IMG/VR virus record: IMGVR_UViG_2526164662_000053
Strand: one strand, 5' to 3'
Source of the DNA: a virus
Lineage: Duplodnaviria > Heunggongvirae > Uroviricota > Caudoviricetes
Length of the DNA: 27,867 bases
Shown: one piece after another, positions 1-24,472 of the stretch
Position numbering within the stretch: position 1 is the stretch's first letter
Layout: every line of letters starts with the position of its first letter
Notes under the pieces: model-generated
The model's database searches: none
What the model was told of the DNA's origin: nothing
What the model saw: only the letters and a program-made list of their open reading frames with translations
Made by a program: the position numbers and the translations under genes

Positions 1-345
1 GTTATCAGTGATGATACGCAGACGACGGTAGGCCGGGTCGTTCAGCTGAGCCGGATCTTCACCGGGAAGACGCTCAACCGCCTGCTGGTAATTAAATTCG
101 TGTTTCGGCTTGACGTAGCCCGGACGTAACACGCGGGTTTCACCACCACGATGACGCAGCACTTTTCCTTCAACAACCGGGGAAACATAGGCCGCCACCG
201 GCGTTTTTCCGGTAATTTTGTCCAGCATCACCTCTTCGGTATGGAAATTCACCGTACGGCGGAAAAACAGCTCCAGAAACAGCGCACGAAATTTCACTTT
301 TTGTTCGGTATAACCGAGTAACTGGCGGGTCGTAAACAATCCCAT
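1..345 (-). CDS. E: major capsid protein (lambda gpE-like), N-terminal 115 codons; gene runs off the window start
   Basis: ATG at 345 with AAGGA about 9 nt upstream; translation MGLFTTRQLLGYTEQKVKF...GYVKPKHEF recalls the lambda E N-terminus; no stop before position 1. Confidence 0.8.
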   Translation of the reverse strand, partial: MGLFTTRQLLGYTEQKVKFRALFLELFFRRTVNFHTEEVMLDKITGKTPVAAYVSPVVEGKVLRHRGGETRVLRPGYVKPKHEFNYQQAVERLPGEDPAQLNDPAYRRLRIITDN

Positions 346-402
346 AAATCAGTTCCTTTCATTCAGAAATCAGTCAGGCCACCGCGGTGGCCTGATAACG
401 TG

Positions 403-750
403 TTACGGCAGCGCCGCGTGACTCAGGGCACTGCCGGCAAAGGCGTTGGCCTTTTTGTGTTCATCCACACTTTCAGGCCAGCGGATTGCCTCCGTCGCAA
501 AGGTCCCCGACTTGTAATAGGTCAGCGCCGTCTCTGTGCCTTCAAGCGGCAGTACCAGTATGCCAACCGCACTACCGGCTTTCTGTCCGTCCCAGACCAC
601 CAGTTTCCCGGTGGCCTCATCCAGCATCAGGGGCGTCAGTGCCGGTGTTGCCGAGGAAATCCCGCTGCTGCCTGTGGCGGTATGAGCCGGATCATTACCG
701 GCAAAAATACGTACTTCCGCACGCTGTTCAGTGATAGTTTTCGTCACCAT
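403..750 (-). CDS. D: head decoration protein (lambda gpD-like)
   Basis: 115 aa ORF; GNDPAHTATG...TPLMLD...VWDG...AVGIL...YKSGTF matches recalled gpD; sits between C and E as in lambda. Confidence 0.85.
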   Translation of the reverse strand: MVTKTITEQRAEVRIFAGNDPAHTATGSSGISSATPALTPLMLDEATGKLVVWDGQKAGSAVGILVLPLEGTETALTYYKSGTFATEAIRWPESVDEHKKANAFAGSALSHAALP

Positions 751-786
751 ATTGTAAAAACCTCCTGTTGATGGTCAGCACTGGCT

Positions 787-2292
787 TCATGGCATGGCCA
801 TGAGCATTTTCACGTCCGCATCACCGTCTGCTGACGTCTGTGGCACGCCACCCTGTACCGCTGCCGGTGAATGGTTCGCCATGATGCGTTCAAACATGGC
901 GGTTGTGGATGCAGAGACCGGTTCTGCCTTACCTGATCCCGCAGCCAGCACAGCCCGGGCGCTCTCCACAGTCATTCCCGGGCAGGCAGCCAGCTGTTCA
1001 GCCTGCGCCTCAGCCCCTTTTGCCTCATCCAGTGCCATGATCTGATCACGGAGTGAGGGTCCGGCATCCGCCTGCGGTGAAGCAGCCAGGATCGGGCGGG
1101 CTTTTTCCACCGTCATCTCCGGCATCGCCGCCAGCGTTGCCGCCAGTTGTTCACGACCTTTCGCTTCTTCACACGCCATAATGCGATCGGCTTCACTCTG
1201 CGCGGATGCCACCGGCTGCTGTGGTGCCGCCGCGGCCAGAATCGCCCGGGCCTGTTCAACGCTCATGCCCTGTTGTCCTGCCAGCATCGTGGCAAGCTGT
1301 TCACGTCCTTTCGCTTCCTGGCATGTCAGGATCCCCATCACTCGCTGGTTCTCCTGCGCGGCGGCTTCCGTTGCAGTTAATTGCGGCATAGTGCCTCCTC
1401 TGACATTACTGTTCAGCGCCGTGGCCATCACACTGATGGCATCCGACGCATTGATTAATTCATCCGCCAGCCCGGCCTCAATGCCGGACTGACCTTCAAA
1501 AACGGCGGCCTCTGTTCCCGTGACGGCATCAACAGACAGACCGGTATACATCGCTACTTTTTCAGCAAACATCCGGCGCGCCGCATCAATGCGCTGTTGC
1601 ATGTCCTGGCGAACCTCTGCCGGCAACGCTTCAAACTGATTGCCATCCACCTTGTGCGCCCCTGAGTAAATCAGCGTGATATCAACACCGGCCTGCGCCA
1701 GATGACCGGCATAGCTGACATGGCTCATCATCACGCCAATGGAGCCGATACGGGATGTCTGGGTAACCAGCCGTCGGGAGCAGGCCGACGCCAGCAGCAT
1801 GGCTGCAGAGCAGGCCGTGTCATTGCACAGTGCCCAGACCGGCTTCTGCTGACGGAGGCGGTAAATCATGTCAGCGCAGTCAAACGCGCCGGCGGCCTGC
1901 CCGCCCGGACTGTCAATGTCCAGCAGTACGCCCCGCACCTGGCTGTCCGCCATTGCCTGCTGAAGACAGGCGACAATGCCGTCATAGCCTGTCATTCCGG
2001 AAAATGGCCGCATACCCCCCAGCCGGTGCACCAGCGTGCCGGTCACCGGCAGTACAGCAATACCGTTCACCACCCGGTAAACACGGGCCGGTCGTTTACC
2101 TCCGGCCATGTACTCGTCCGTTTCAGCCAGCATTCCGGGAGCATCAAACTGTACCTGCTGTTGTGGTACCGAAAGACTTGATGCCCCCATCTCGCGCCCG
2201 AGCGCGCAAAAGAAAACCCGCGCATAGGCGGGCTCCAGAAGCAGCGGTTCATTGAATGCTGCGGCAATAATGTGTGAAAGATTACGTCTCAC
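787..2292 (-). CDS. C: head maturation protease / scaffold (lambda gpC-Nu3-like, S49 peptidase family)
   Basis: 501 aa; N-terminus NEPLLLEPAYARVFF and core VWALCNDTACSAA...GSIGVMM match recalled gpC; C-terminal third is the Nu3-like scaffold region. Confidence 0.85.
   Translation of the reverse strand: MRRNLSHIIAAAFNEPLLLEPAYARVFFCALGREMGASSLSVPQQQVQFDAPGMLAETDEYMAGGKRPARVYRVVNGIAVLPVTGTLVHRLGGMRPFSGMTGYDGIVACLQQAMADSQVRGVLLDIDSPGGQAAGAFDCADMIYRLRQQKPVWALCNDTACSAAMLLASACSRRLVTQTSRIGSIGVMMSHVSYAGHLAQAGVDITLIYSGAHKVDGNQFEALPAEVRQDMQQRIDAARRMFAEKVAMYTGLSVDAVTGTEAAVFEGQSGIEAGLADELINASDAISVMATALNSNVRGGTMPQLTATEAAAQENQRVMGILTCQEAKGREQLATMLAGQQGMSVEQARAILAAAAPQQPVASAQSEADRIMACEEAKGREQLAATLAAMPEMTVEKARPILAASPQADAGPSLRDQIMALDEAKGAEAQAEQLAACPGMTVESARAVLAAGSGKAEPVSASTTAMFERIMANHSPAAVQGGVPQTSADGDADVKMLMAMP
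880..1345. repeat. three tandem repeats of about 150 bp inside the C/Nu3 coding region
   Basis: Protein shows three consecutive units of about 50 aa (IM-x-EAKGREQLA...GMTVE-AR-ILAA); related DNA strings recur near 980-1040, 1141-1186 and 1290-1331. Confidence 0.6.
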
Positions 2293-3875
2293 GTGGTGTT
2301 GTCTCCTCTTCCGGCCTGCGACTCTCCGCTATCTGCTGCTCATACGCCTGCGCTATCCACACCGGACGTGAGAGTCCGGCTTTTTGTCGCTCAGCAGATT
2401 CCCTGACCTGCTGGCGGAAAATGTCCTGATAATCCTCGCCCATCAGCGCCAGCTCTTTCTCATACGTGCTCAGTCCGGCCTCAATGCGCATCACTGATTC
2501 CTGGACTTCCTTGAGCCCGTCAATGGCCATTCTTCCGGCTCCAATCCACTCTGCCCGTGACCAGGCTGATCGCGCCTGATAAAAATCAAAACGTGCCCGT
2601 GGCGGACGAATAATCCCCCGAAGAAGTGCCTCTTCCAGCCAGCAGGAAAACATCTGCGTGGCCAGCCGGGCCGCAATAAATTTTCGTCGTCCCATAAAAT
2701 AGCGCCACGACTCATTGGCGGAGGCGCGGGCACTTGAGTAACTGACCTTGAGTAATCACGGGACGAACTGTTCGTAGGAAACGCCAAGACCGGCGGCGAT
2801 ATACCGCAGCAACGCCTGTTCAAGCGCAGAAAATCCATTGTCTGAATCCTGCGCAGTCTGTAGTTTCAGATCATCACCAGGGAAAAGGTGCGGAATTTTG
2901 ACACCGCCCAGTGTCACGTTATTCGTGTCATACCAGCTGGAGAACTTCTCCAGAATATTAATAAGCGGATTATCTTTCTGCTCCTGTGGCGCGCCGGCGA
3001 TATATTCAAAGGCCTTTTCGGTATCAAGTTCACTTTCAATCGTCGCTGCATACATGGCTTTCACAATGGCCGACTGAAGCTGTGTTGCCTGCAGGGAATC
3101 CAGCATCTTCAGCCGTTCCATGACGCTGTAAAACTGATTAGCCCCACGGGTCTGCCCGTCCTCCACCGGCTCGAAAATATGCAGCATGGCCGGACGCCCG
3201 GTGGGTAGTTCACGCGGTATCCGTTCCCATCGTCCACTACCAGAGACGGAAAATCATCCTCACAGATATGGTACGCAACGGCACGGCCATATCGATCGAC
3301 CTCCACCCCGGCCCGCAGAAAACGGTTCCCTATACCGTGTCCTGGCGTGTCCACCCGTTTCGGACTCACGGCTTTAAAACGCGTACGAAACAGTTGCGTG
3401 CTCTCCGTATCCCAGACCGGCTGCACAAAGATTTCGCCGTTAAACGCATGAACGCCCACACCTTCACGGATAAATTCCGTAAACGTGCGTTTCCCTTCCA
3501 CGTCGATCTCGCCAGACATCCCTTCGGCGTATTCCGACCAGGCCGCCTCCACCTCATCGACAAAACTTTTTGCTGCAGTCTCCCGCATCCCCAGCCAGCG
3601 CCAGTTCGGACGGTAGCTGATCAGGAACATATGCCCGACAATATGATCCTTATGCAGTGCCACCGCATTTGGCCGCTATCCCGTTATTGCGCACCAGATC
3701 ATCTGCACGGGCATTGCCCAGACGCAACGCGGGCAACAGGGCCGCATCGGCACTCTGCGCCGGTGGCAACCACTCCGCCCATTTGCCCGCCAAATCCTGC
3801 ACCGCCCCCGTTGTAGCTGAGGCTCTCCCGAAGCGGAACACCGTTCACATCAATCAGGACAGGCGTTCGTTTCAT
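2282..3875 (-). pseudogene. B: portal protein (lambda gpB-like), interrupted by several frameshifts and an in-frame TGA
   Basis: ATG at 3875 overlaps the W stop (ATGA); portal similarity is split over ORFs 3650..3841, 3109..3663, 2756..3187 and 2282..2695; frame breaks near 3775-3785, 3668-3670 and 3205-3250; TGA at 2756-2758. Confidence 0.75.
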
Positions 3876-4081
3876 AACCTCACTCCCAGCGGACGACGGC
3901 GGCGGCTTGTTGTCCCCAGCACTGACTCCGCATCATTGATCGCCCGGTTAAGATCATCCAGAGAGGCCACCGTATATTCAATTCTTCGTCCATCTTTCTG
4001 GACAGACACCACCCGTTTACCGGTTAATAAATCAAGGCGCGCCTGACGCAGCGCCTGCAGTTCAGCGACGTAACCATTCAC
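3872..4081 (-). CDS. W: head-tail connector protein (lambda gpW-like)
   Basis: C-terminal 69 codons of ORF 3872..4609 (…LTGKRVVSVQKDGRRIEYTVASLDDL…) match recalled gpW; only in-frame start is GTG at 4081; no stop separates it from the terminase frame. Confidence 0.55.
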   Translation of the reverse strand: MNGYVAELQALRQARLDLLTGKRVVSVQKDGRRIEYTVASLDDLNRAINDAESVLGTTSRRRRPLGVRL

Positions 4082-5990
4082 TCCTCCGGACAGCTTCGCT
4101 GCCAGTTCTTTCAGGGTTGGCCGGGTCGTCTCTTCTTCCCGGGATTTTGCCAGTACAGCCAGATCAAGCTGCCAGCGTTGCACGGACACACGTAATGCCG
4201 CGTAGGCATACACCAGGCAGTCCAGCGCTTCGTTACGCCGCTTTTTGTTATCCCACAGCAGACGCATCTTTCCTTTTTCCCACTTCTCCACCAGCTCTTC
4301 CGCCACCAGTTGCTGCGCCTCTGTCTGCGAAAAAATCTCCGGATCATCAGGAAAACGGATGGCATACGACGTGGCTTCATCCGCAGGCGAGGGATCGGCT
4401 TTCATACGGGCATAGAGAATTTCTTTTGCGGTGTCCGTTCCCACTTCACACAGATACACGCCCCGCTGATTGCGGGTTTTTGCATGGTGATCACCGGCTT
4501 GCCATAGACAGATGCGCCTTTTACCGGCAGCACCCGGGAAAAAACCGTGTTTTTTTGTATCTCTGATAAACAATTTCACCATCGATCCCCCCGGTGTCCC
4601 AGCAGACACGGGAAATAGTCATTTCGGTGCCATCCGCATGGCGGTATTTTTTGTTGATCGCCGCATCCACACGTAACAGCGTCTCTTCCTCATCAGGACG
4701 CCCCATAATGATGATTTTATCCACCAGAAAGGCTTCCTCTCCCGGAGCCCATCCCCAGACATACATCTCAAAACGGTTTCGCTGCGAGTCAATGCCCGCC
4801 GTCAGATAAACCACCCGGGCAGGCACCGCCGCCGTGTAACGCACCACCTTATCCATCAGTACCTGGTGATCGAGTTTTTCGCCCACGGCCTCTTCCCAGG
4901 TCTCGCCCAGCGTGGTGTTCACAAAGGTTTTCAGGCCGTTGGGATCTTTCAGTGCATCCAGCCAGTCATAGACAATCTGTACCCAGGTGGTGAACGGACT
5001 GTACGCCGTCCAGATATGGAACGTGATGGAGCGCGGCGGCGGAATTTCATCACCCCGGGCGCTGAAAAACGTCAGACCGTCACGGGTCCACATGCCCGTG
5101 TTTTCACAGATCCACCGCCCGTTGCTCTGGTCCAGTTCAGACTGATGGATCACGCAGCCATGATGTTCACAGAGGTAGAAAACACTTTCAGGGCTGTCCT
5201 TCTCCCATTTAAGCCCAAAAGGCGTGGACTCATCGCCAAATTTCAGATACTGCTCCTCCCCACAGTGCGGGCAGGGCACATAAAAACGCATAAAATGCGC
5301 CGACTCGTTAGCGGCTTTTTCGATCTGGCAGGTGCCTTTGATTTTAGGCGTCGAGCCGCGAATGGATTTTGGCCACACCGACCCCTCAATACGCTTATCC
5401 CCCAGCAGGGTTGGCGAGCCCTCTTTTTCGACATCCGGCTCGAACGAGGAAAGTTCGTCATAGCAGACCACGTCCACGGATTTTTCACGGTAGTTTTTGG
5501 CGGCAGCGCCGCCCAGGCACCAGAAACCGACGCCCGATGAAAAGCGTTTCAGCGTGAGAGTATTGTCACGATGTTTACGCCCCAGCCATGGGGAAAGGTC
5601 TTTCAGGCATGGCACGTTCCGAATCGTCGCCTCCACGTGAGACTTCATAAAATCTTCAGCGGCAGAATCCGTGGGCTGAAAAAGCAGACTGTTTCGGGAT
5701 TTATGCTCAATAAAATACCCGACCACCCCCAGCAACATCTTTGTATAGCCAACACGGGCAGATTTAATCAGATTAACAGTGCGGATCTGATCATTCCCCA
5801 TGCTGTTCATGATGGCGATCTGGAATGGCAGCGTTTTCCATTCGCCCTCACCATATGAAGATTCTTTAGGCAGATAATAATTTTGATCAGCCCATTCAAC
5901 TGGCGTCACCGGCAATGCCCTTATCAGGGGCTGTAATGCAGTTGTGACAGCGCTCATCATATTATTCAGTTGTTGCTCTGATATATTCAT
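4082..5990 (-). pseudogene. A: terminase large subunit (lambda gpA-like), frameshifted
   Basis: ATG at 5990 (MNISEQQ…); strong gpA similarity through WDTGGIDGEIVYQRYKK, then three frame changes at runs 4549-4555 (T7), 4532-4537 (CCCGGG) and 4477-4481 (T5); C-terminal similarity resumes and runs into W. Confidence 0.75.
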
Positions 5991-6468
5991 CAAGTAAATC
6001 CGGTAATTTATCCCCTGCCCGCGCACACTGATTTGCCCCCTTAGCAATAAGGGTTTTCAGATGGTCAAGATGGCGCGGTGTTAAATCAGGAAACTGTCGC
6101 TGCATGGATAAAGGGATGGAATCAAGCGTACTGGATAACGCCATTGCCAGCTTACTGAGGGCAAAAATACAGAATCCGGTGTCAATAAGCTTACCTTCGG
6201 TTACCTGATTTTTAAGTTTTTGAGCTACGGCCTGTTCTTCTGTCAGTTCAGCTCTGGCCCGAAGCAGCCTTTCCTCCAGATCGCCCTCGTCATCAGGTAT
6301 TCTCTGATTGTGTTGTCGCCGCTCGCGATCTATCTCCAGTACAGTTTTAACGTCATAAAAAACTTCCCTCCCCCGACGCTCAACAGGAGGAACGCCCCAT
6401 TTATCAAATGCCTGAACAGATATACCGATGGAGGAGGCCATATCACTTTTATTCAATAAAAAGGCCAT
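5962..6468 (-). CDS. nu1: terminase small subunit (lambda Nu1-like)
   Basis: ATG at 6468 preceded by GGAGAGGAG; MAFLLNKSDMASSIGISVQAFDKWG…PLSMQRQFPDL aligns with recalled Nu1; 3' end overlaps terL start. Confidence 0.8.
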   Translation of the reverse strand: MAFLLNKSDMASSIGISVQAFDKWGVPPVERRGREVFYDVKTVLEIDRERRQHNQRIPDDEGDLEERLLRARAELTEEQAVAQKLKNQVTEGKLIDTGFCIFALSKLAMALSSTLDSIPLSMQRQFPDLTPRHLDHLKTLIAKGANQCARAGDKLPDLLDEYIRATTE

Positions 6469-14023: not shown

Positions 14024-14100
14024 TGGCGCGCTGTACTGGATTCGAACCAGTGACCGATTGCTTAGAAGGCAATTGCTCTGTCCGGCTGAGCTAACAACGC
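14024..14100 (-). tRNA. tRNA-Arg (anticodon UCU)
   Basis: Reverse complement folds as cloverleaf: 7-bp acceptor stem GCGTTGT/ACAGCGC, anticodon loop CTTCTAA, T-arm GGTTCGAATCC, 3' CCA. Confidence 0.9.
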
Positions 14101-14201: not shown

Positions 14202-14277
14202 TGGTGGCCCTTGCTGGATTTGAACCAGCGACCTGGCGATTATGAGTCGCTCGCTCTCACCACTGAGCTAAAGGGCC
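14202..14277 (-). tRNA. tRNA with CAU anticodon, ileX/ileZ-like (tRNA-Ile2; reads as Met by anticodon)
   Basis: Perfect 7-bp acceptor stem GGCCCTT/AAGGGCC, anticodon loop CTCATAA, T-arm GGTTCAAATCC, CCA end; close to recalled E. coli ileX. Confidence 0.9.
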
Positions 14278-17054: not shown

Positions 17055-17109
17055 AAGTGCGGGTGCGTTGAGGATGCCTGACACATCAGAGGTGGCGAGG
17101 GATTCTCCC

Positions 17110-18449
17110 CATAAGCGCTAACTTAAGGGTTGAACCATCTGAAGAATGCGACGCCTCGGTGCCTCGTTAAGACGATGCCTCGCGTTCTTCAATTGCGTTT
17201 TGTAGGCTGTCAGGGATACTGTCCCACGAATGGCCACCTGTAAGCTCCAGATGACCATTTTTGTTATTCTCCACAACGAGTTAGTTCTTCTTTTCGGATC
17301 CGGCACTTCTGGGGGGGAAATCCAGCGATGGCTGGATTATGTCGTCAATTAAAAATGCGGCGAGTAGATTAGCAAATATCCACGCTTTCGCGAGTTCAGG
17401 TTCCTTTGCACGCAAAGCATCCAGGTGCAGCAAACTTTTGAGCCGCTTAAAAGCCAGTTCAATTTGCCATCGCAGACGGTAACAATCAGCCACTTGCTCT
17501 GCTGAATATTCATCTTCCGGTAATGATGTTAGCAATAGCACATGGCCCGCTGCTTCCAGCGTTTCCGCCTGAACTACTCGTCCTTTTCGACGATTCTCGC
17601 TGAGCAGTCGGGTTTTACTGATTAATGCTTTTTCGGGAGGAAGTGATACGGCAATGAGACGTGCCGGAAAGGGAGCTCCGGTCTTTTTTATTACCTGAAT
17701 TGCCTATCATTACAGTGGTTTCACCGTTCTTACCGCAATCCAGCCCGCGCAGAAAACCCATCATGTCAAAGCGCATTCCTTCTGCAGTTAACCAGCGCAA
17801 TCCTCGCCAGTGAACCCGGACGATATAATCAGCTTCTCCAAAAGCAAGTGAGCGGATACATTCGGGACGCGAACCGAATCCCCGGTCAGCAATGCGTATC
17901 TCGTCTGCCGTTTGCGCAAATCGGTCCAGCCGTTCAGCGTCTCTGCTGTCGGTTAGCTCAAAATCAGTGAACTGACAGGTATGAGGATCATATCCCATAT
18001 GTAGTCGCCATTCAGCGCTGCCGCCCCCGGGCGCACTGATTGCTGTTCCATCGACAAGACGCAATCTCTTTCCGCTTGTACAACCCGTAACTGCGGCGCG
18101 TACAGCAAGTGTTTGTGCGGCAAGTATGCCAAACCAGTCGGCGGCATTCCGCAGCCGCTTCAGGAGAGCCACGTCAGATAATGTTGCAACGTCATGGAGC
18201 TGAGCCCATGCAGTGACTTCACGTAATGACATCCCCCCGGGGCCGTAAGCCAGCCCCAGACGTAGCAGAGTTGCAGCATCACGAATTTCGCGGCGGCGGG
18301 TTAGAGCCCCGGCATTACGTGCCGAAGTATCCAGTTCTTCGGGCTTACCAATATGGGCCAGAATTGCTGACCAGTTATCGTGAGAGTAATTCATCGGCAC
18401 GTTAAATCATATCAGGCGTAATACCACAACCCTTAAGTTAGCGCTTATG
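17110..18449 (-). mobile_element. IS186 copy 1 (IS4 family)
   Basis: Perfect 23-bp terminal inverted repeats CATAAGCGCTAACTTAAGGGTTG; transposase recognised as IS186 InsL; 1340 bp, flanked by GGGATTCTCCC and GGGATTGCTCCCC. Confidence 0.9.
17281..18400 (-). pseudogene. insL: IS186 transposase, split by one frameshift
   Basis: ORFs 17615..18400 and 17281..17541 together cover the transposase; copy 1 reads ccggtctttttta where copy 2 reads ccggctttttta. Confidence 0.8.
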
Positions 18450-18471
18450 GGGATTGCTCCCCGCACAACGG

Positions 18472-18769: not shown

Positions 18770-18963
18770 CCGCCGTTATCTTACCCTTCCTCAACAAAAT
18801 ATCTGTTTATTTATACAGTGAATCCTGTTTCGGACTTCTGTCGGCAAAACTCATCATTGCTCTTAAAACGAAATCGCCCGCAGCCATCACTGACCGCGGG
18901 CGAAAGTGTAAAGCAGGTGCCTTACCATCCTGACCTGACAACCGGATATGCGGGGATTGCTCC

Positions 18964-20301
18964 CATAAGCGCTAACTTAAGGGTTGAACCATCTGAAGAA
19001 TGCGACGCCTCGGTGCCTCGTTAAGACGATGCCTCGCGTTCTTCAATTGCGTTTTGTAGGCTGTCAGGGATACTGTCCCACGAATGGCCACCTGTAAGCT
19101 CCAGATGACCATTTTTGTTATTCTCCACAACGAGTTAGTTCTTCTTTTCGGATCCGGCACTTCTGGGGGGGAAATCCAGCGATGGCTGGATTATGTCGTC
19201 AATTAAAAATGCGGCGAGTAGATTAGCAAATATCCACGCTTTCGCGAGTTCAGGTTCCTTTGCACGCAAAGCATCCAGGTGCAGCAAACTTTTGAGCCGC
19301 TTAAAAGCCAGTTCAATTTGCCATCGCAGACGGTAACAATCAGCCACTTGCTCTGCTGAATATTCATCTTCCGGTAATGATGTTAGCAATAGCACATGGC
19401 CCGCTGCTTCCAGCGTTTCCGCCTGAACTACTCGTCCTTTTCGACGATTCTCGCTGAGCAGTCGGGTTTTACTGATTAATGCTTTTTCGGGAGGAAGTGA
19501 TACGGCAATGAGACGTGCCGGAAAGGGAGCTCCGGCTTTTTTATTACCTGAATTGCCTATCATTACAGTGGTTTCACCGTTCTTACCGCAATCCAGCCCG
19601 CGCAGAAAACCCATCATGTCAAAGCGCATTCCTTCTGCAGTTAACCAGCGCAATCCTCGCCAGTGAACCCGGACGATATAATCAGCTTCTCCAAAAGCAA
19701 GTGAGCGGATACATTCGGGACGCGAACCGAATCCCCGGTCAGCAATGCGTATCCCGTCTGCCGTTTGCGCAAATCGGTCCAGCCGTTCAGCGTCTCTGCT
19801 GTCGGTTAGCTCAAAATCAGTGAACTGACAGGTATGAGGATCATATCCCATATGTAGTCGCCATTCAGCGCTGCCGCCCCCGGGCGCACTGATTGCTGTT
19901 CCATCGACAAGACGCAATCTCTTTCCGCTTGTACAACCCGTAACTGCGGCGCGTACAGCAAGTGTTTGTGCGGCAAGTATGCCAAACCAGTCGGCGGCAT
20001 TCCGCAGCCGCTTCAGGAGAGCCACGTCAGATAATGTTGCAACGTCATGGAGCTGAGCCCATGCAGTGACTTCACGTAATGACATCCCCCGGGGCCGTAA
20101 GCCAGCCCCAGACGTAGCAGAGTTGCAGCATCACGAATTTCGCGGCGGCGGGTTAGAGCCCCGGCATTACGTGCCGAAGTATCCAGTTCTTCGGGCTTAC
20201 CAATATGGGCCAGAATTGCTGACCAGTTATCGTGAGAGTAATTCATCGGCACGTTAAATCATATCAGGCGTAATACCACAACCCTTAAGTTAGCGCTTAT
20301 G
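18964..20301 (-). mobile_element. IS186 copy 2 (IS4 family)
   Basis: Same 23-bp inverted repeats; 1338 bp; flanked by GGGGATTGCTCC and GGGATTCTCCCCC; same orientation as copy 1. Confidence 0.9.
19135..20252 (-). pseudogene. insL: IS186 transposase, split by one frameshift near the N-terminus
   Basis: ORFs 20013..20252 and 19135..20085; C5 run at 20086-20090 where copy 1 has C6; plus one substitution (ADGIRIA versus ADEIRIA). Confidence 0.8.
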
Positions 20302-20324
20302 GGGATTCTCCCCCGCCTGGTCTC

Positions 20325-22039: not shown

Positions 22040-22621
22040 TTATCTTCTTTTCAGTTCCTTGGGAAGAAAAGCATCTATTTCTTCTTCAGAAAATGTTAAA
22101 TCTTCTTTGTTTTTTAATGCGTCCTGTGCTTTTTTATAAGCTTCAAATGTTGTACTAGGAGAGCCTGAATACACTGAATGTAAACTCTCGAGTAACGAAT
22201 CCCGCTCTGACTGCAATTGCTCGATTGGTTTTTCACCCATTGCTAAGTCTGTAAGCAATGATAAATACTTTTCTCGGATTAACCAGATCTCATTTGCAGC
22301 CTGCTTATGTTTTTGCGCCAACTCACCAAGGTCATAATCTTTGGTATAAGCGTTAAGAATGAGAAGCAGTGTTGAAACAACAATCCCAACCCCCGTGCCT
22401 ACTTCACCCGCGCCGAAAAAAGTTGCTAGAAAGCCTCCAGTAGTTAAGGCGGAGAGAATTATTTGCCAAAACTTTATAGAAGATAGTCGAGATAGGAGAA
22501 TGTCTGAGCATTTTTCATGCGTCTTATGTGAGTAAACGACCCGACCATAACACTCTCTGATCTGCCCTTCTAAAACCCTTCTAGATTCAGGTGTATCCTT
22601 AGTCTGGAAATGTTGATCCAT
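22040..22621 (-). CDS. SLATT-like two-helix membrane protein (candidate effector)
   Basis: 193 aa from ATG at 22621 (GGGAGA SD); two adjacent hydrophobic helices FWQIILSALTTGGFLATFF and GVGIVVSTLLLILNAY flanked by charged regions; start lies 23 nt inside the upstream gene. Confidence 0.6.
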   Translation of the reverse strand: MDQHFQTKDTPESRRVLEGQIRECYGRVVYSHKTHEKCSDILLSRLSSIKFWQIILSALTTGGFLATFFGAGEVGTGVGIVVSTLLLILNAYTKDYDLGELAQKHKQAANEIWLIREKYLSLLTDLAMGEKPIEQLQSERDSLLESLHSVYSGSPSTTFEAYKKAQDALKNKEDLTFSEEEIDAFLPKELKRR

Positions 22622-23480
22622 AAATCTCCCGCCATTTTTGCTTAGCCGACCATTCGCGTTTTGGGGTCGCCATTTCATGCTCTATAGCTTCGAGTGAAAT
22701 GTTATAGCACCGTTTTGCTTTATATTGGAAAAGCCCTTTACCATAGACATACTGACCACTTCCTGGCGCTTTCCAATACTCCTTACTCGTATCTTGATCA
22801 GCCATCCATTTGAAGAAATCACGACTCATGAAATCGTAGTAAAGATACGACTTATCTCTATGCGCCCAATTTTCAATGAATTGATACGCAAGCGTATCAA
22901 TGAGTAAACCACTTATAGGTACATCCCATTTACGCTTCCAAGCTCTTGCCATTCTACAAAGTTGCACCAAATTGTTATTGGTAATGTTATTTCTTAACCT
23001 CATTGCAGAAATTTCTGGCTTTGGATTTGTAATCCTCCAACGGCCACCACCGTTCGCATCAGGAAATGTGTAACTATCACTAACATTGAGGAAAGCTGGA
23101 ACGACTTCAAATGTAATTCCATCATTGAACGGTACAAGGATCACTTGACCGTCACCTCTAATACTAGTGGTAGCATAGGTTTTTTCAATAGATCTCTTAA
23201 CCGCTTGAAGCAATGCTGACTGCCCATTTCCTAAGTAGCTATTGTATTTTTGATACTCGGAATATGGTAGCTGAAAAATCATATCCAGATCGCTCAAGCC
23301 TTGCGTAGCTGTGTTCCGACCATATGATCCAACGTAGAGACTATGAGAAGTATCAGAACTGCTATCCCAAAAATCCGTATTTAAACGCTTCGTTATATTC
23401 CTATATCTAGTTGAAATTGTTCCACCATCTTTTACAGTAAGATTGGAGCAAAATCCGCAAAACCACTCAGCTAAACCCAT
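22599..23480 (-). CDS. SMODS / CD-NTase-like nucleotidyltransferase (candidate signal synthase)
   Basis: 293 aa from ATG at 23480 (AAGGA SD); motif VGSYGRNTATQGLSDLDMIF (GS…DxD) and downstream acidic motif NDGITFEVVPA. Confidence 0.65.
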   Translation of the reverse strand: MGLAEWFCGFCSNLTVKDGGTISTRYRNITKRLNTDFWDSSSDTSHSLYVGSYGRNTATQGLSDLDMIFQLPYSEYQKYNSYLGNGQSALLQAVKRSIEKTYATTSIRGDGQVILVPFNDGITFEVVPAFLNVSDSYTFPDANGGGRWRITNPKPEISAMRLRNNITNNNLVQLCRMARAWKRKWDVPISGLLIDTLAYQFIENWAHRDKSYLYYDFMSRDFFKWMADQDTSKEYWKAPGSGQYVYGKGLFQYKAKRCYNISLEAIEHEMATPKREWSAKQKWREIYGSTFPD

Positions 23481-24049: not shown

Positions 24050-24472
24050 TCACTTCAAAAAATACCGAACATCCCCCTGATAAAACGACAATATCCACTG
24101 CATAACTTCGCTTTTACGACACTCAGTACAAATTATATTATGACGCCTGTCGTAACGACGTATTTCTCCATCAGGTAATGACCAGATAAGGTCCGGATCA
24201 ACCGCAGATGGTTTCTTCAGCTTTGCCCTTGAGAGCTTTTTACGGGCATTTTGCCAGTCCTTACGCGCCTGTTCAGACGGGAATAACCCGTAACCAGAGT
24301 TGTATACATCGCCACTGGCAACCAGCTCTCTGGCCAGAACGCTCATCAGATATCTTGTTGCCCCAGTTTTAGCTTCCAGTTGTCGTAACGTCTCGCGCCC
24401 ACTCTGGCGTACGAGTTCAAGAACCTGCCCTTTAATTTTTTCCCGCTCTTCTTGTGTAAAAACTTTTGCCAC
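24050..24472 (-). CDS. hypothetical protein with HTH-like segment (lambda P position)
   Basis: 140 aa ORF downstream of the O-like gene; function not recognised. Confidence 0.4.
   Translation of the reverse strand: MAKVFTQEEREKIKGQVLELVRQSGRETLRQLEAKTGATRYLMSVLARELVASGDVYNSGYGLFPSEQARKDWQNARKKLSRAKLKKPSAVDPDLIWSLPDGEIRRYDRRHNIICTECRKSEVMQWILSFYQGDVRYFLK

What the first reader, a model, noticed from the sequence alone, without database searches (positions are those of the whole stretch)
3872..5990. Large terminase has three indels within about 80 bp and reads through into W
gpA-like similarity changes frame three times at 4549-4555 (T7), 4532-4537 (CCCGGG) and 4477-4481 (T5), then continues in-frame into the W-like sequence without a stop. 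Lambda, as recalled, has a TGA/ATG overlap at the A-W junction; here the junction tccggaggagtgaatggttac appears one base shorter. The clustering is either a local low-quality patch in the assembly or mutational decay.
Basis: partly seen in the sequence, partly recalled or inferred. Interest (0 to 1): 0.45.

Follow-up and report, generated by a model that had tools for sequence, protein, structure and literature searches.

The report
Terminase frameshifts are probably assembly errors
The broken terminase gene fused to its neighbour W is really in the sequence, but it belongs to a patch of nine one-base errors in a repeated prophage region of a 2012 draft E. coli assembly, and other contigs of that assembly carry the same stretch intact, so it is almost certainly a sequencing artefact.

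Summary
On the minus strand, a phage-21-type terL (start 5990) changes frame at 4558 (+1), 4536-4538 (+1) and 4482-4483 (-1). A fourth one-base deletion at 4069/4070 fuses the terL C-terminal frame to W.

The finding is only the upper half of a larger patch. Nine one-base indels lie in 2749-4558, and five of them also shatter the portal gene. About 30 other genes in the window are intact.

The window is AIGU01000048.1:1-27867, a draft assembly of E. coli DEC10F (GCA_000250095.2), and it starts at a contig end. Two other contigs of the same assembly cover the same head-gene stretch (AIGU01000052.1 and AIGU01000079.1). They share the strain-private W A37V and the same mosaic portal allele, but carry none of the nine indels. 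Contig 79 reads the terL C-terminus, its stop and W intact.

No copy in 5,426 complete E. coli genomes has the triple indel. The truncated terL protein occurs on this one contig only.

Contig 79, and both IS421 copies in the window, carry their own private one-base indels. The most likely explanation is consensus error in repeat-derived sequence (about 0.87). Genuine decay is about 0.1. Interest is low.

The parts
5962..6468 (-). terS (Nu1-like small terminase), intact
   Evidence: Gene called on the source contig with PF07471 Phage_Nu1. Annotated as terminase small subunit in relatives.
4521..5990 (-). terL fragment 1: native codons 1-478, then 11 out-of-frame codons and a stop
   Evidence: ORF list and translation. 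Pfam finds GpA_ATPase plus the first 165 of 294 positions of GpA_nuclease. This exact 489-aa product occurs on one contig only among 153 billion gene positions.
4482..4558 (-). Triple-indel stretch: +1 at 4558, substitution at 4543 (V483F), +1 at 4536-4538, -1 at 4482-4483
   Evidence: Alignments with B1_2, PhiR12_1, phage 21 and DEC10F contig 79. No copy among 2,929 places in complete E. coli genomes exceeds 97.0% identity over 4455-4585.
3872..4609 (-). Chimeric ORF: terL residues about 504-640 read through into W residues 4-68
   Evidence: Pfam finds GpA_nuclease positions 173-287 plus gpW in one ORF. The source record also has a called 177-aa gene carrying both domains.
4069..4070 (-). One-base deletion (A of TTACAGTC) inside the 17-nt terL/W overlap; it fuses the two frames
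   Evidence: The base is present in all references and in DEC10F contigs 52 and 79.
2282..3875 (-). Portal gene (530 aa when intact), broken into fragments 3699-3875, 3109-3663, 2756-3187 and 2282-2695 by five one-base indels (3778-3780 +1, 3668-3670 +1, 3245-3247 -1, 2765 +1, 2749/2750 -1)
   Evidence: The same allele with the indels reverted exists exactly as EHW93071.1 on DEC10F contig 52.
1..4805 (.). Part of the contig that the same assembly holds redundantly: 1-4805 is also in AIGU01000079.1 and 1-4295 is also in the end of AIGU01000052.1. All nine indels lie inside it
   Evidence: Pairwise and multiple alignments. Window coordinates equal record coordinates of AIGU01000048.1, so position 1 is a contig end.
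2552..2993 (-). Genuine mosaic patch of the portal allele: 16 substitutions relative to B1_2, 12 of them synonymous
   Evidence: Window 2790-3010 matches portal genes of O157:H7 strains 493/89 and LSU61 at 100%. DEC10F contigs 52 and 79 share the patch at every variant position except 2687 and 2690, and so does an independent Logan assembly that matches contig 52.

Best explanation
The locus is the ordinary DNA-packaging and head module (terS, terL, W, portal, S49 protease, decoration protein, major capsid protein) of a phage-21-type lambdoid prophage in E. coli DEC10F.

The three terL frameshifts and the terL-W read-through are most likely base-calling or consensus errors, not mutations. This module is present in several near-identical copies in the strain. 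The assembler split the reads among three partly redundant contigs. The consensus of the copy attached to contig 48 was then left with nine one-base indels and a few singleton substitutions across 2749-4558.

In the organism, terL (642 aa) is expected to be continuous and to end 17 nt inside W, as in contig 79 and in all relatives.

Shown: the indels are private to this contig, lie only in the redundant stretch, and are absent from the sister contigs.
Inferred: the cause is low or mixed read coverage. The sequencing platform is not verified.
For: 1. Source. The window is AIGU01000048.1:1-27867 of draft assembly GCA_000250095.2 and begins at a contig end. Protein names identify the strain as DEC10F.

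2. Localisation. Against B1_2 over 17.1 kb, all nine indels lie in 2749-4558 and none lies elsewhere. About 30 other genes translate full length.

3. Redundancy within the assembly. Contig 52 dovetails with window 1-4295 at 99.63% identity. Contig 79 covers window 4805-1. Both share the strain-private W A37V and nearly all of the mosaic portal patch. Neither has any of the nine indels or the substitutions 4543, 3625, 3331 and 3218.

4. Intact copy in the same strain. Contig 79 encodes a continuous 247-aa terL C-terminus followed by an intact W.

5. Uniqueness. No place among 2,929 in 5,426 complete genomes has the triple indel. The truncated terL is on one contig only. The frame-corrected proteins that keep V483F (terL) or M181I (portal) are absent from 15 billion proteins. 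The portal without M181I, and W A37V, are present, and W A37V occurs in DEC10F only.

6. Error-like spectrum. There are 9 indels against 5 private substitutions. Every indel is exactly 1 nt, with 5 insertions and 4 deletions, in non-runs or 2-nt runs.

7. The same symptom appears in other repeats of this assembly. Contig 79 has three different private 1-nt indels in the portal gene. Both IS421 copies in the window carry a private 1-nt indel beside a homopolymer, relative to an intact IS421. None of about 8,900 IS421 places is 100% identical to either copy.

8. Literature. A published study noted suspicious frameshifts in cas genes of sister DEC draft genomes and could not exclude sequencing error (PMC5592225).
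Against: - No reads or quality values are available, so the error was not observed directly.
- The last 2.7 kb before the contig end (1-2748) is clean. A simple picture of a ragged contig end does not predict that.
- Contig 48 differs from contig 52 at a few allele-like sites (2495, 2504, 2507, 2687, 2690). At least two real paralogous copies therefore exist, and the contig-48 copy could in principle be a distinct, genuinely damaged one.
- Three of the five private substitutions are synonymous, which is not what random error predicts, although n=5 is too small to weigh.
- Defective lambdoid prophages with frameshifts are common in EHEC-like strains (my own background knowledge).
Confidence: 0.87

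Rival explanations
1. Genuine pseudogenisation. One of several co-resident copies of the head module in DEC10F has really acquired nine one-base frameshifts. These truncate terL within its nuclease domain, fuse its tail to W and break the portal gene, so this prophage cannot package DNA.
For: - The sequence as deposited reads this way.
- At least two real paralogous alleles exist in the strain, shown by the allele-like differences between contigs 48 and 52 at 2495-2690.
- Contig 48 has a private synonymous substitution at 1945, outside the indel patch.
- Defective prophages are frequent in such strains (background knowledge).
Against: - The single-copy flanks differ from intact prophages by only 3 substitutions in about 12.5 kb. 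That leaves too little time for nine neutral indels in 1.8 kb.
- The indel-to-substitution ratio of 9:5, the exclusively 1-nt size, and insertions being as common as deletions do not match natural spectra.
- None of the indels is seen in any other assembly or genome.
- The sister contigs carry the same strain-private markers without the indels.
- Other repeats in the same assembly show the same kind of private 1-nt indels.
Confidence: 0.1
2. Import of a long-decayed segment. A recombination tract from an old, degraded prophage remnant replaced 2.5-4.6 kb of an otherwise intact prophage.
For: The patch coincides with a region of raised substitution density, and the portal allele is mosaic.
Against: - The mosaic substitutions are mostly synonymous. 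They occur in intact portal genes elsewhere and, at nearly every site, in the clean contig 52.
- From 3000 to 4560 the backbone is identical to the B1_2 allele apart from private singletons. It therefore lacks the many substitutions an old remnant would carry.
- No donor with any of the indels exists among about 3,000 copies.
Confidence: 0.02
3. Programmed recoding. The frame changes are decoded by ribosomal frameshifting to yield terL or a terL-W fusion.
For: None beyond the presence of A/T runs near two of the shifts.
Against: - All relatives, including phage 21, PhiR12_1 and about 2,900 genomic copies, have one continuous 642-aa ORF through this stretch.
- Three shifts of mixed sign within 80 nt, plus five more in the portal gene, are not a recoding signal.
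- The A7 run has the same length in intact genes.
Confidence: 0.01

Closest known systems
Phage 21 gene 2 / lambda gpA large terminase with downstream gpW (phage-21-type head module; OL657228.1, M81255.1)
   Same: - 92% nucleotide identity to phage 21, and 96% to PhiR12 phages, over terL-W-portal.
- Same gene order: terS, terL, W, portal, S49 protease, decoration protein, MCP.
- GpA_ATPase and GpA_nuclease domains are present.
- The IKSARVGYTK stretch resembles the lambda gpA P-loop as I recall it.
- After correction, the junction has the 17-nt terL/W overlap.
   Different: As deposited, terL is split after codon 478 and its C-terminus is fused to W. The intact version of this very allele is present on contig 79 of the same strain.
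Intact prophage copies in complete E. coli genomes (for example B1_2 NZ_CP074764.1, terL WP_024017589.1, W WP_000258991.1)
   Same: 99.7% identical over 2.5 kb. The terL protein is identical once the frame is corrected, except for V483F.
   Different: Seven private differences in 2.5 kb, five of them one-base indels.
Repeat-associated consensus errors in early draft assemblies (suspected frameshifts in cas genes of sister DEC drafts, PMC5592225)
   Same: - Private single-base frameshifts in a draft from the same project.
- In this window they are confined to multi-copy sequence (prophage head module, IS421).
- The same stretch is held redundantly on several contigs.
   Different: The platform and coverage for DEC10F could not be checked, because Hazen et al. 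2012 is not held. A paper from the same laboratory describes 454 Titanium with Celera, or Illumina with Velvet, for other strains.

Membership tests
Lambda-type large terminase (gpA family) | N-terminal GpA_ATPase domain (PF05876) | tested here: met
   E = 5.9e-56, full-length match, in ORF 4521-5990.
Lambda-type large terminase (gpA family) | Complete C-terminal GpA_nuclease domain (PF20454) in the same polypeptide, about 640 aa | tested here: not met
   The domain is split. Profile positions 3-165 are in ORF 4521-5990 and positions 173-287 are in ORF 3872-4609. It is met in contig 79 of the same strain and in all relatives.
gpW head-tail joining protein (PF02831) | gpW domain | tested here: met
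   E = 4.2e-21, positions 4-66 of 66, inside the chimeric ORF.
gpW head-tail joining protein (PF02831) | Own start codon and an independent 68-aa product | tested here: not met
   The deletion at 4069/4070 shifts the frame after W codon 2. From the W ATG the window reads MVTSLNC... to an early stop. An intact W A37V is present on contigs 52 and 79.
Lambda-family portal (PF05136) | Single continuous ORF of about 530 aa carrying the Phage_portal_2 domain | tested here: not met
   The domain is spread over at least three ORFs in three frames. An intact copy with an identical allele is on contig 52.
Genuine prophage pseudogene (mutational decay) | Lesions reproducible in independent assemblies or related strains | tested here: not met
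   The truncated product is on one contig only. No complete genome shares the indels. The sister contigs lack them.
Genuine prophage pseudogene (mutational decay) | Divergence of the flanks sufficient to accommodate the number of lesions, with substitutions outnumbering indels | tested here: not met
   Outside the patch there are 3 substitutions in about 12.5 kb. Inside 1.8 kb there are 9 indels against 5 private substitutions.
Assembly or consensus artefact in repeated sequence | Anomalies confined to sequence that is multi-copy or redundant in the same assembly, with a clean version present | tested here: met
   All nine indels lie within 1-4805, which contigs 52 and 79 also cover without them. 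IS421 copies and contig 79 show further private 1-nt indels.
Assembly or consensus artefact in repeated sequence | Low or mixed read support at the affected positions | not testable with these tools
   No reads or quality values are available. The strain marker W A37V has no Logan source, so no independent read-level assembly of DEC10F was found.
Programmed ribosomal frameshift | Frame change and slippery site conserved among homologues | tested here: not met
   All homologues are continuous through this stretch.

The most novel reading that the evidence does not exclude
The nine one-base indels are real. One of several near-identical co-resident prophage head modules in DEC10F would then have suffered a very recent, sharply localised burst of frameshift mutagenesis across terL, W and portal. 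That burst would disable packaging in this copy while sister copies in the same cell stayed intact.
Probability: 0.08. Interest if true: 0.35.

Novelty: not a real feature. Interest (0 to 1): 0.05.

Why it matters
The value is mainly in housekeeping. The truncated GpA fragment, the GpA_nuclease-gpW chimera and the portal fragments deposited for this contig should not be read as pseudogenes, as gene fusions, or as evidence that this prophage is defective.

The case also gives a practical check for draft genomes. Look for sister contigs of the same assembly that cover the same repeat before calling decay.

If the lesions were real after all, they would only mark one more defective lambdoid prophage, although with an unusual mutation pattern.

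Tried and rejected
- **Recombination from a divergent allele as the cause of the whole patch.** The substitutions in 2552-2993 are indeed a real mosaic allele. They are mostly synonymous, match O157 portal genes at 100%, and are shared by contig 52. The indels are not part of that allele.
- **A donor or relative sharing any of the indels.** I searched complete E. coli genomes with 2.5-kb, 1.2-kb and 131-bp queries and found none.
- **Independent assemblies of the same strain.** I used exact-protein look-ups. The strain marker W A37V occurs only in GCA_000250095.2, so no independent data exist in the collections.
- **The DEC genome announcement (Hazen et al. 2012) for platform and coverage.** It is not held, by DOI or by PMC id. 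Searches for AIGU00000000 and DEC10F found nothing. The strain name comes from protein names. It also fits the accession series AIGK-AIGS given in PMC5592225.
- **Programmed frameshifting.** Rejected for lack of any conservation.
- **The simple idea of a ragged contig end.** It is only partly satisfactory, because the terminal 2.7 kb is clean.
Full report
**What is in the sequence**

On the minus strand the window carries the head and packaging module of a lambdoid prophage. The genes are:
- terS, 5962-6468
- terL, starting at 5990
- W
- portal
- an S49 protease/scaffold gene
- a decoration-protein gene
- the first 115 codons of the major capsid gene, cut off at window position 1

The module is phage-21-type. 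It is 92% identical to phage 21 and 96% to PhiR12 phages. It is up to 99.7% identical to prophages in complete E. coli genomes. In all of these, terL is a continuous 1,929-nt ORF of 642 aa, and W starts 17 nt before the terL stop (ATGGTTACAGTCGCTGA).

That is not the arrangement of this phage type.

**Checking the observation**

I aligned window 3700-6200 with E. coli B1_2, PhiR12_1 and phage 21. The window differs from B1_2 at seven positions, and five of them are one-base indels. Those relevant to the finding are:
- an extra base at 4558
- an extra base at 4536-4538
- a missing base at 4482-4483
- the substitution at 4543 (V483F)
- a missing A at 4069/4070, inside the terL/W overlap

The effects on the reading frames are:
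- terL runs for 478 native codons and stops at 4521.
- The next 25 codons are spread over two other frames.
- The remaining terL residues, about 504-640, lie in ORF 3872-4609. Because of the 4069/4070 deletion, that ORF continues into W residues 4-68.
- Pfam places the first 165 positions of GpA_nuclease in the first ORF. It places positions 173-287 together with gpW in the second.

The homopolymers it named (T7, T5) have normal lengths, and the changed bases lie next to them.

**The finding is part of a larger patch**

Against B1_2 the window aligns over 17.1 kb at 99.78% identity. All nine indels in that alignment fall between 2749 and 4558. There are three in terL, one in the terL/W overlap and five in the portal gene (3778-3780, 3668-3670, 3245-3247, 2765, 2749/2750). 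The portal gene is broken into at least four ORFs.

About 30 other genes in the window translate full length against reference proteins. The only other oddity is a homopolymer-length difference in a DUF977 gene. Nine indels falling within one 1.8-kb span of 17 kb is of order 1e-7 by chance.

**Two kinds of difference in the patch**

The substitutions in 2552-2993 are mostly synonymous third-position changes. Window 2790-3010 matches portal genes of O157:H7 strains 493/89 and LSU61 at 100%. These substitutions are a genuine mosaic allele.

The nine indels and five substitutions (4543, 3625, 3331, 3218, 1945) behave differently. They are found in none of six references. No place among 2,929 in 5,426 complete genomes exceeds 97.0% identity over 4455-4585. 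None exceeds 98.3% over 2500-3700.

**Where the window comes from**

An exact look-up of the truncated 489-aa terL product returned a single contig among 153 billion gene positions. It is AIGU01000048.1 of GCA_000250095.2, with record coordinates equal to window coordinates. The window therefore starts at a contig end of a draft assembly. Protein names identify the strain as E. coli DEC10F. This fits the accession series of the DEC collection listed in PMC5592225.

**The decisive comparison**

I rebuilt the three proteins with the indels reverted and looked them up exactly.

| Rebuilt protein | Result of exact look-up |
|---|---|
| Portal with the mosaic allele, without M181I | Exists as EHW93071.1 of DEC10F |
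| W with A37V | Exists only in DEC10F, on two contigs |
| terL with V483F | Absent from 15 billion proteins |
| Portal with M181I | Absent from 15 billion proteins |

Fetching those contigs showed that the assembly holds this module three times:
- **Contig 52** (13,122 bp). Its last 4,295 nt dovetail with window 1-4295 at 99.63% identity.
- **Contig 79** (5,597 bp). It covers window 4805-1 and runs about 790 nt further.
- **Contig 48**, which is the window.

All three share the strain-private W A37V. They share the mosaic portal patch at every variant position except 2687 and 2690. None of the window's nine indels, and none of the substitutions 4543, 3625, 3331, 3218 and 1945, is present in contig 52 or contig 79.

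Contig 79 encodes a continuous 247-aa terL C-terminus, its stop, and an intact W. Contig 52 is clean throughout. Its portal allele recurs nucleotide for nucleotide, apart from position 2543, in an independent Logan assembly (L018).

Contig 79 has three private one-base indels of its own, at positions equivalent to 2758, 2833 and 2900. They break its portal gene at a different place.

**Other repeats in the window show the same symptom**

The window holds two direct IS421 copies (17099-18462 and 18953-20313). Relative to an intact IS421 of strain C1, each carries one private one-base indel beside a homopolymer: +T at 17682 and -C at 20085. Each indel breaks the transposase ORF. None of about 8,900 IS421 places in complete genomes is 100% identical to either copy.

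The insertions at 17682 and at 4558 have the same form. A base identical to a downstream homopolymer is inserted one position ahead of the base that precedes the run. From my own knowledge this resembles pyrosequencing carry-forward error. I could not verify the platform, because the genome announcement is not held. A paper from the same laboratory reports 454 Titanium with Celera, or Illumina with Velvet, for other strains. Independent authors flagged unexplained frameshifts in cas genes of sister DEC drafts.

**Interpretation**

The best explanation is consensus error in the repeat-derived part of a draft contig, at about 0.87. The lesions have these properties:
- They are private to one contig.
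- They are confined to sequence that is redundant in the same assembly.
- They are absent from sister contigs that carry the same strain-specific markers.
- They are all exactly 1 nt, with insertions as common as deletions.
- They outnumber the private substitutions.

Similar private indels occur in other repeats of the assembly, while about 20 kb of single-copy prophage sequence is clean.

Genuine decay is about 0.1. It would need nine frameshifts in 1.8 kb on a background that differs from intact prophages by 3 substitutions in 12.5 kb. It cannot be excluded without reads, for three reasons. At least two real paralogous copies exist, shown by the allele-like differences between contigs 48 and 52 at 2495-2690. 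The terminal 2.7 kb of the contig is clean. Three of the five private substitutions are synonymous.

Import of an old decayed segment, and programmed frameshifting, are both rejected. No donor exists, the backbone is B1_2-like, and homologues do not conserve the frame changes.

**Comparison with known systems, and novelty**

After correction the genes are ordinary members of the gpA terminase, gpW and lambda-portal families, and they are essentially identical to annotated RefSeq proteins. The frameshift cluster is not a biological feature.

Its practical importance is that the deposited fragments should not be interpreted as pseudogenes or fusions. This applies to the truncated GpA, the GpA_nuclease-gpW chimera and the portal pieces. 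Interest is 0.05.

Noticed in passing
window 17099-18462 and 18953-20313: Two direct copies of IS421 (IS4 family) flank a 490-nt segment that carries a hok-like remnant. Related prophages have one copy (2013C-4991) or none (B1_2) at this site. Each copy has a private 1-nt indel next to a homopolymer (17682 +T, 20085 -C) that breaks the transposase ORF. This could be a composite arrangement or a mis-assembly.
   Followed up: partly
L020 (AIGU01000079.1), positions equivalent to window 2758, 2833, 2900: A sister contig of the same assembly has its own three private one-base indels. They split its portal gene into ORFs of 333 and 137 aa.
   Followed up: yes
window 3969 (W codon 37): W A37V is found only in DEC10F among 15 billion proteins, yet all three contigs covering the module carry it. 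Either the co-resident prophage copies were homogenised by gene conversion, or one locus was assembled more than once.
   Followed up: partly
window 22043-23480: An intact gene pair, SMODS nucleotidyltransferase plus SLATT, sits in the prophage early region. It looks like a CBASS-like defence cassette. In B1_2 the SMODS gene is split, and a 14-nt stretch (22812-22825) is missing there.
   Followed up: no
window 14024-14100 and 14202-14277: Two prophage tRNA genes lie downstream of the antiterminator gene. ARAGORN calls Arg(TCT) and Met(CAT). RefSeq annotates the CAT one as tRNA-Ile in related genomes.
   Followed up: no
window 24050-24060 and 21997: A-run length differences from both closest genomes. 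The one at 24056 shortens the C-terminus of a DUF977 gene, and that gene's length also varies between the two complete genomes.
   Followed up: no
window 2749-2765: A -1 and a +1 indel lie 16 nt apart in the portal gene and would compensate each other, altering only five codons. Both are absent from contigs 52 and 79.
   Followed up: yes
window 5900-6400: The terS allele and the terL 5' end match B1_2 but diverge strongly from 2013C-4991 (terS about 74% aa identity). This marks a mosaic boundary near the terS/terL junction.
   Followed up: no
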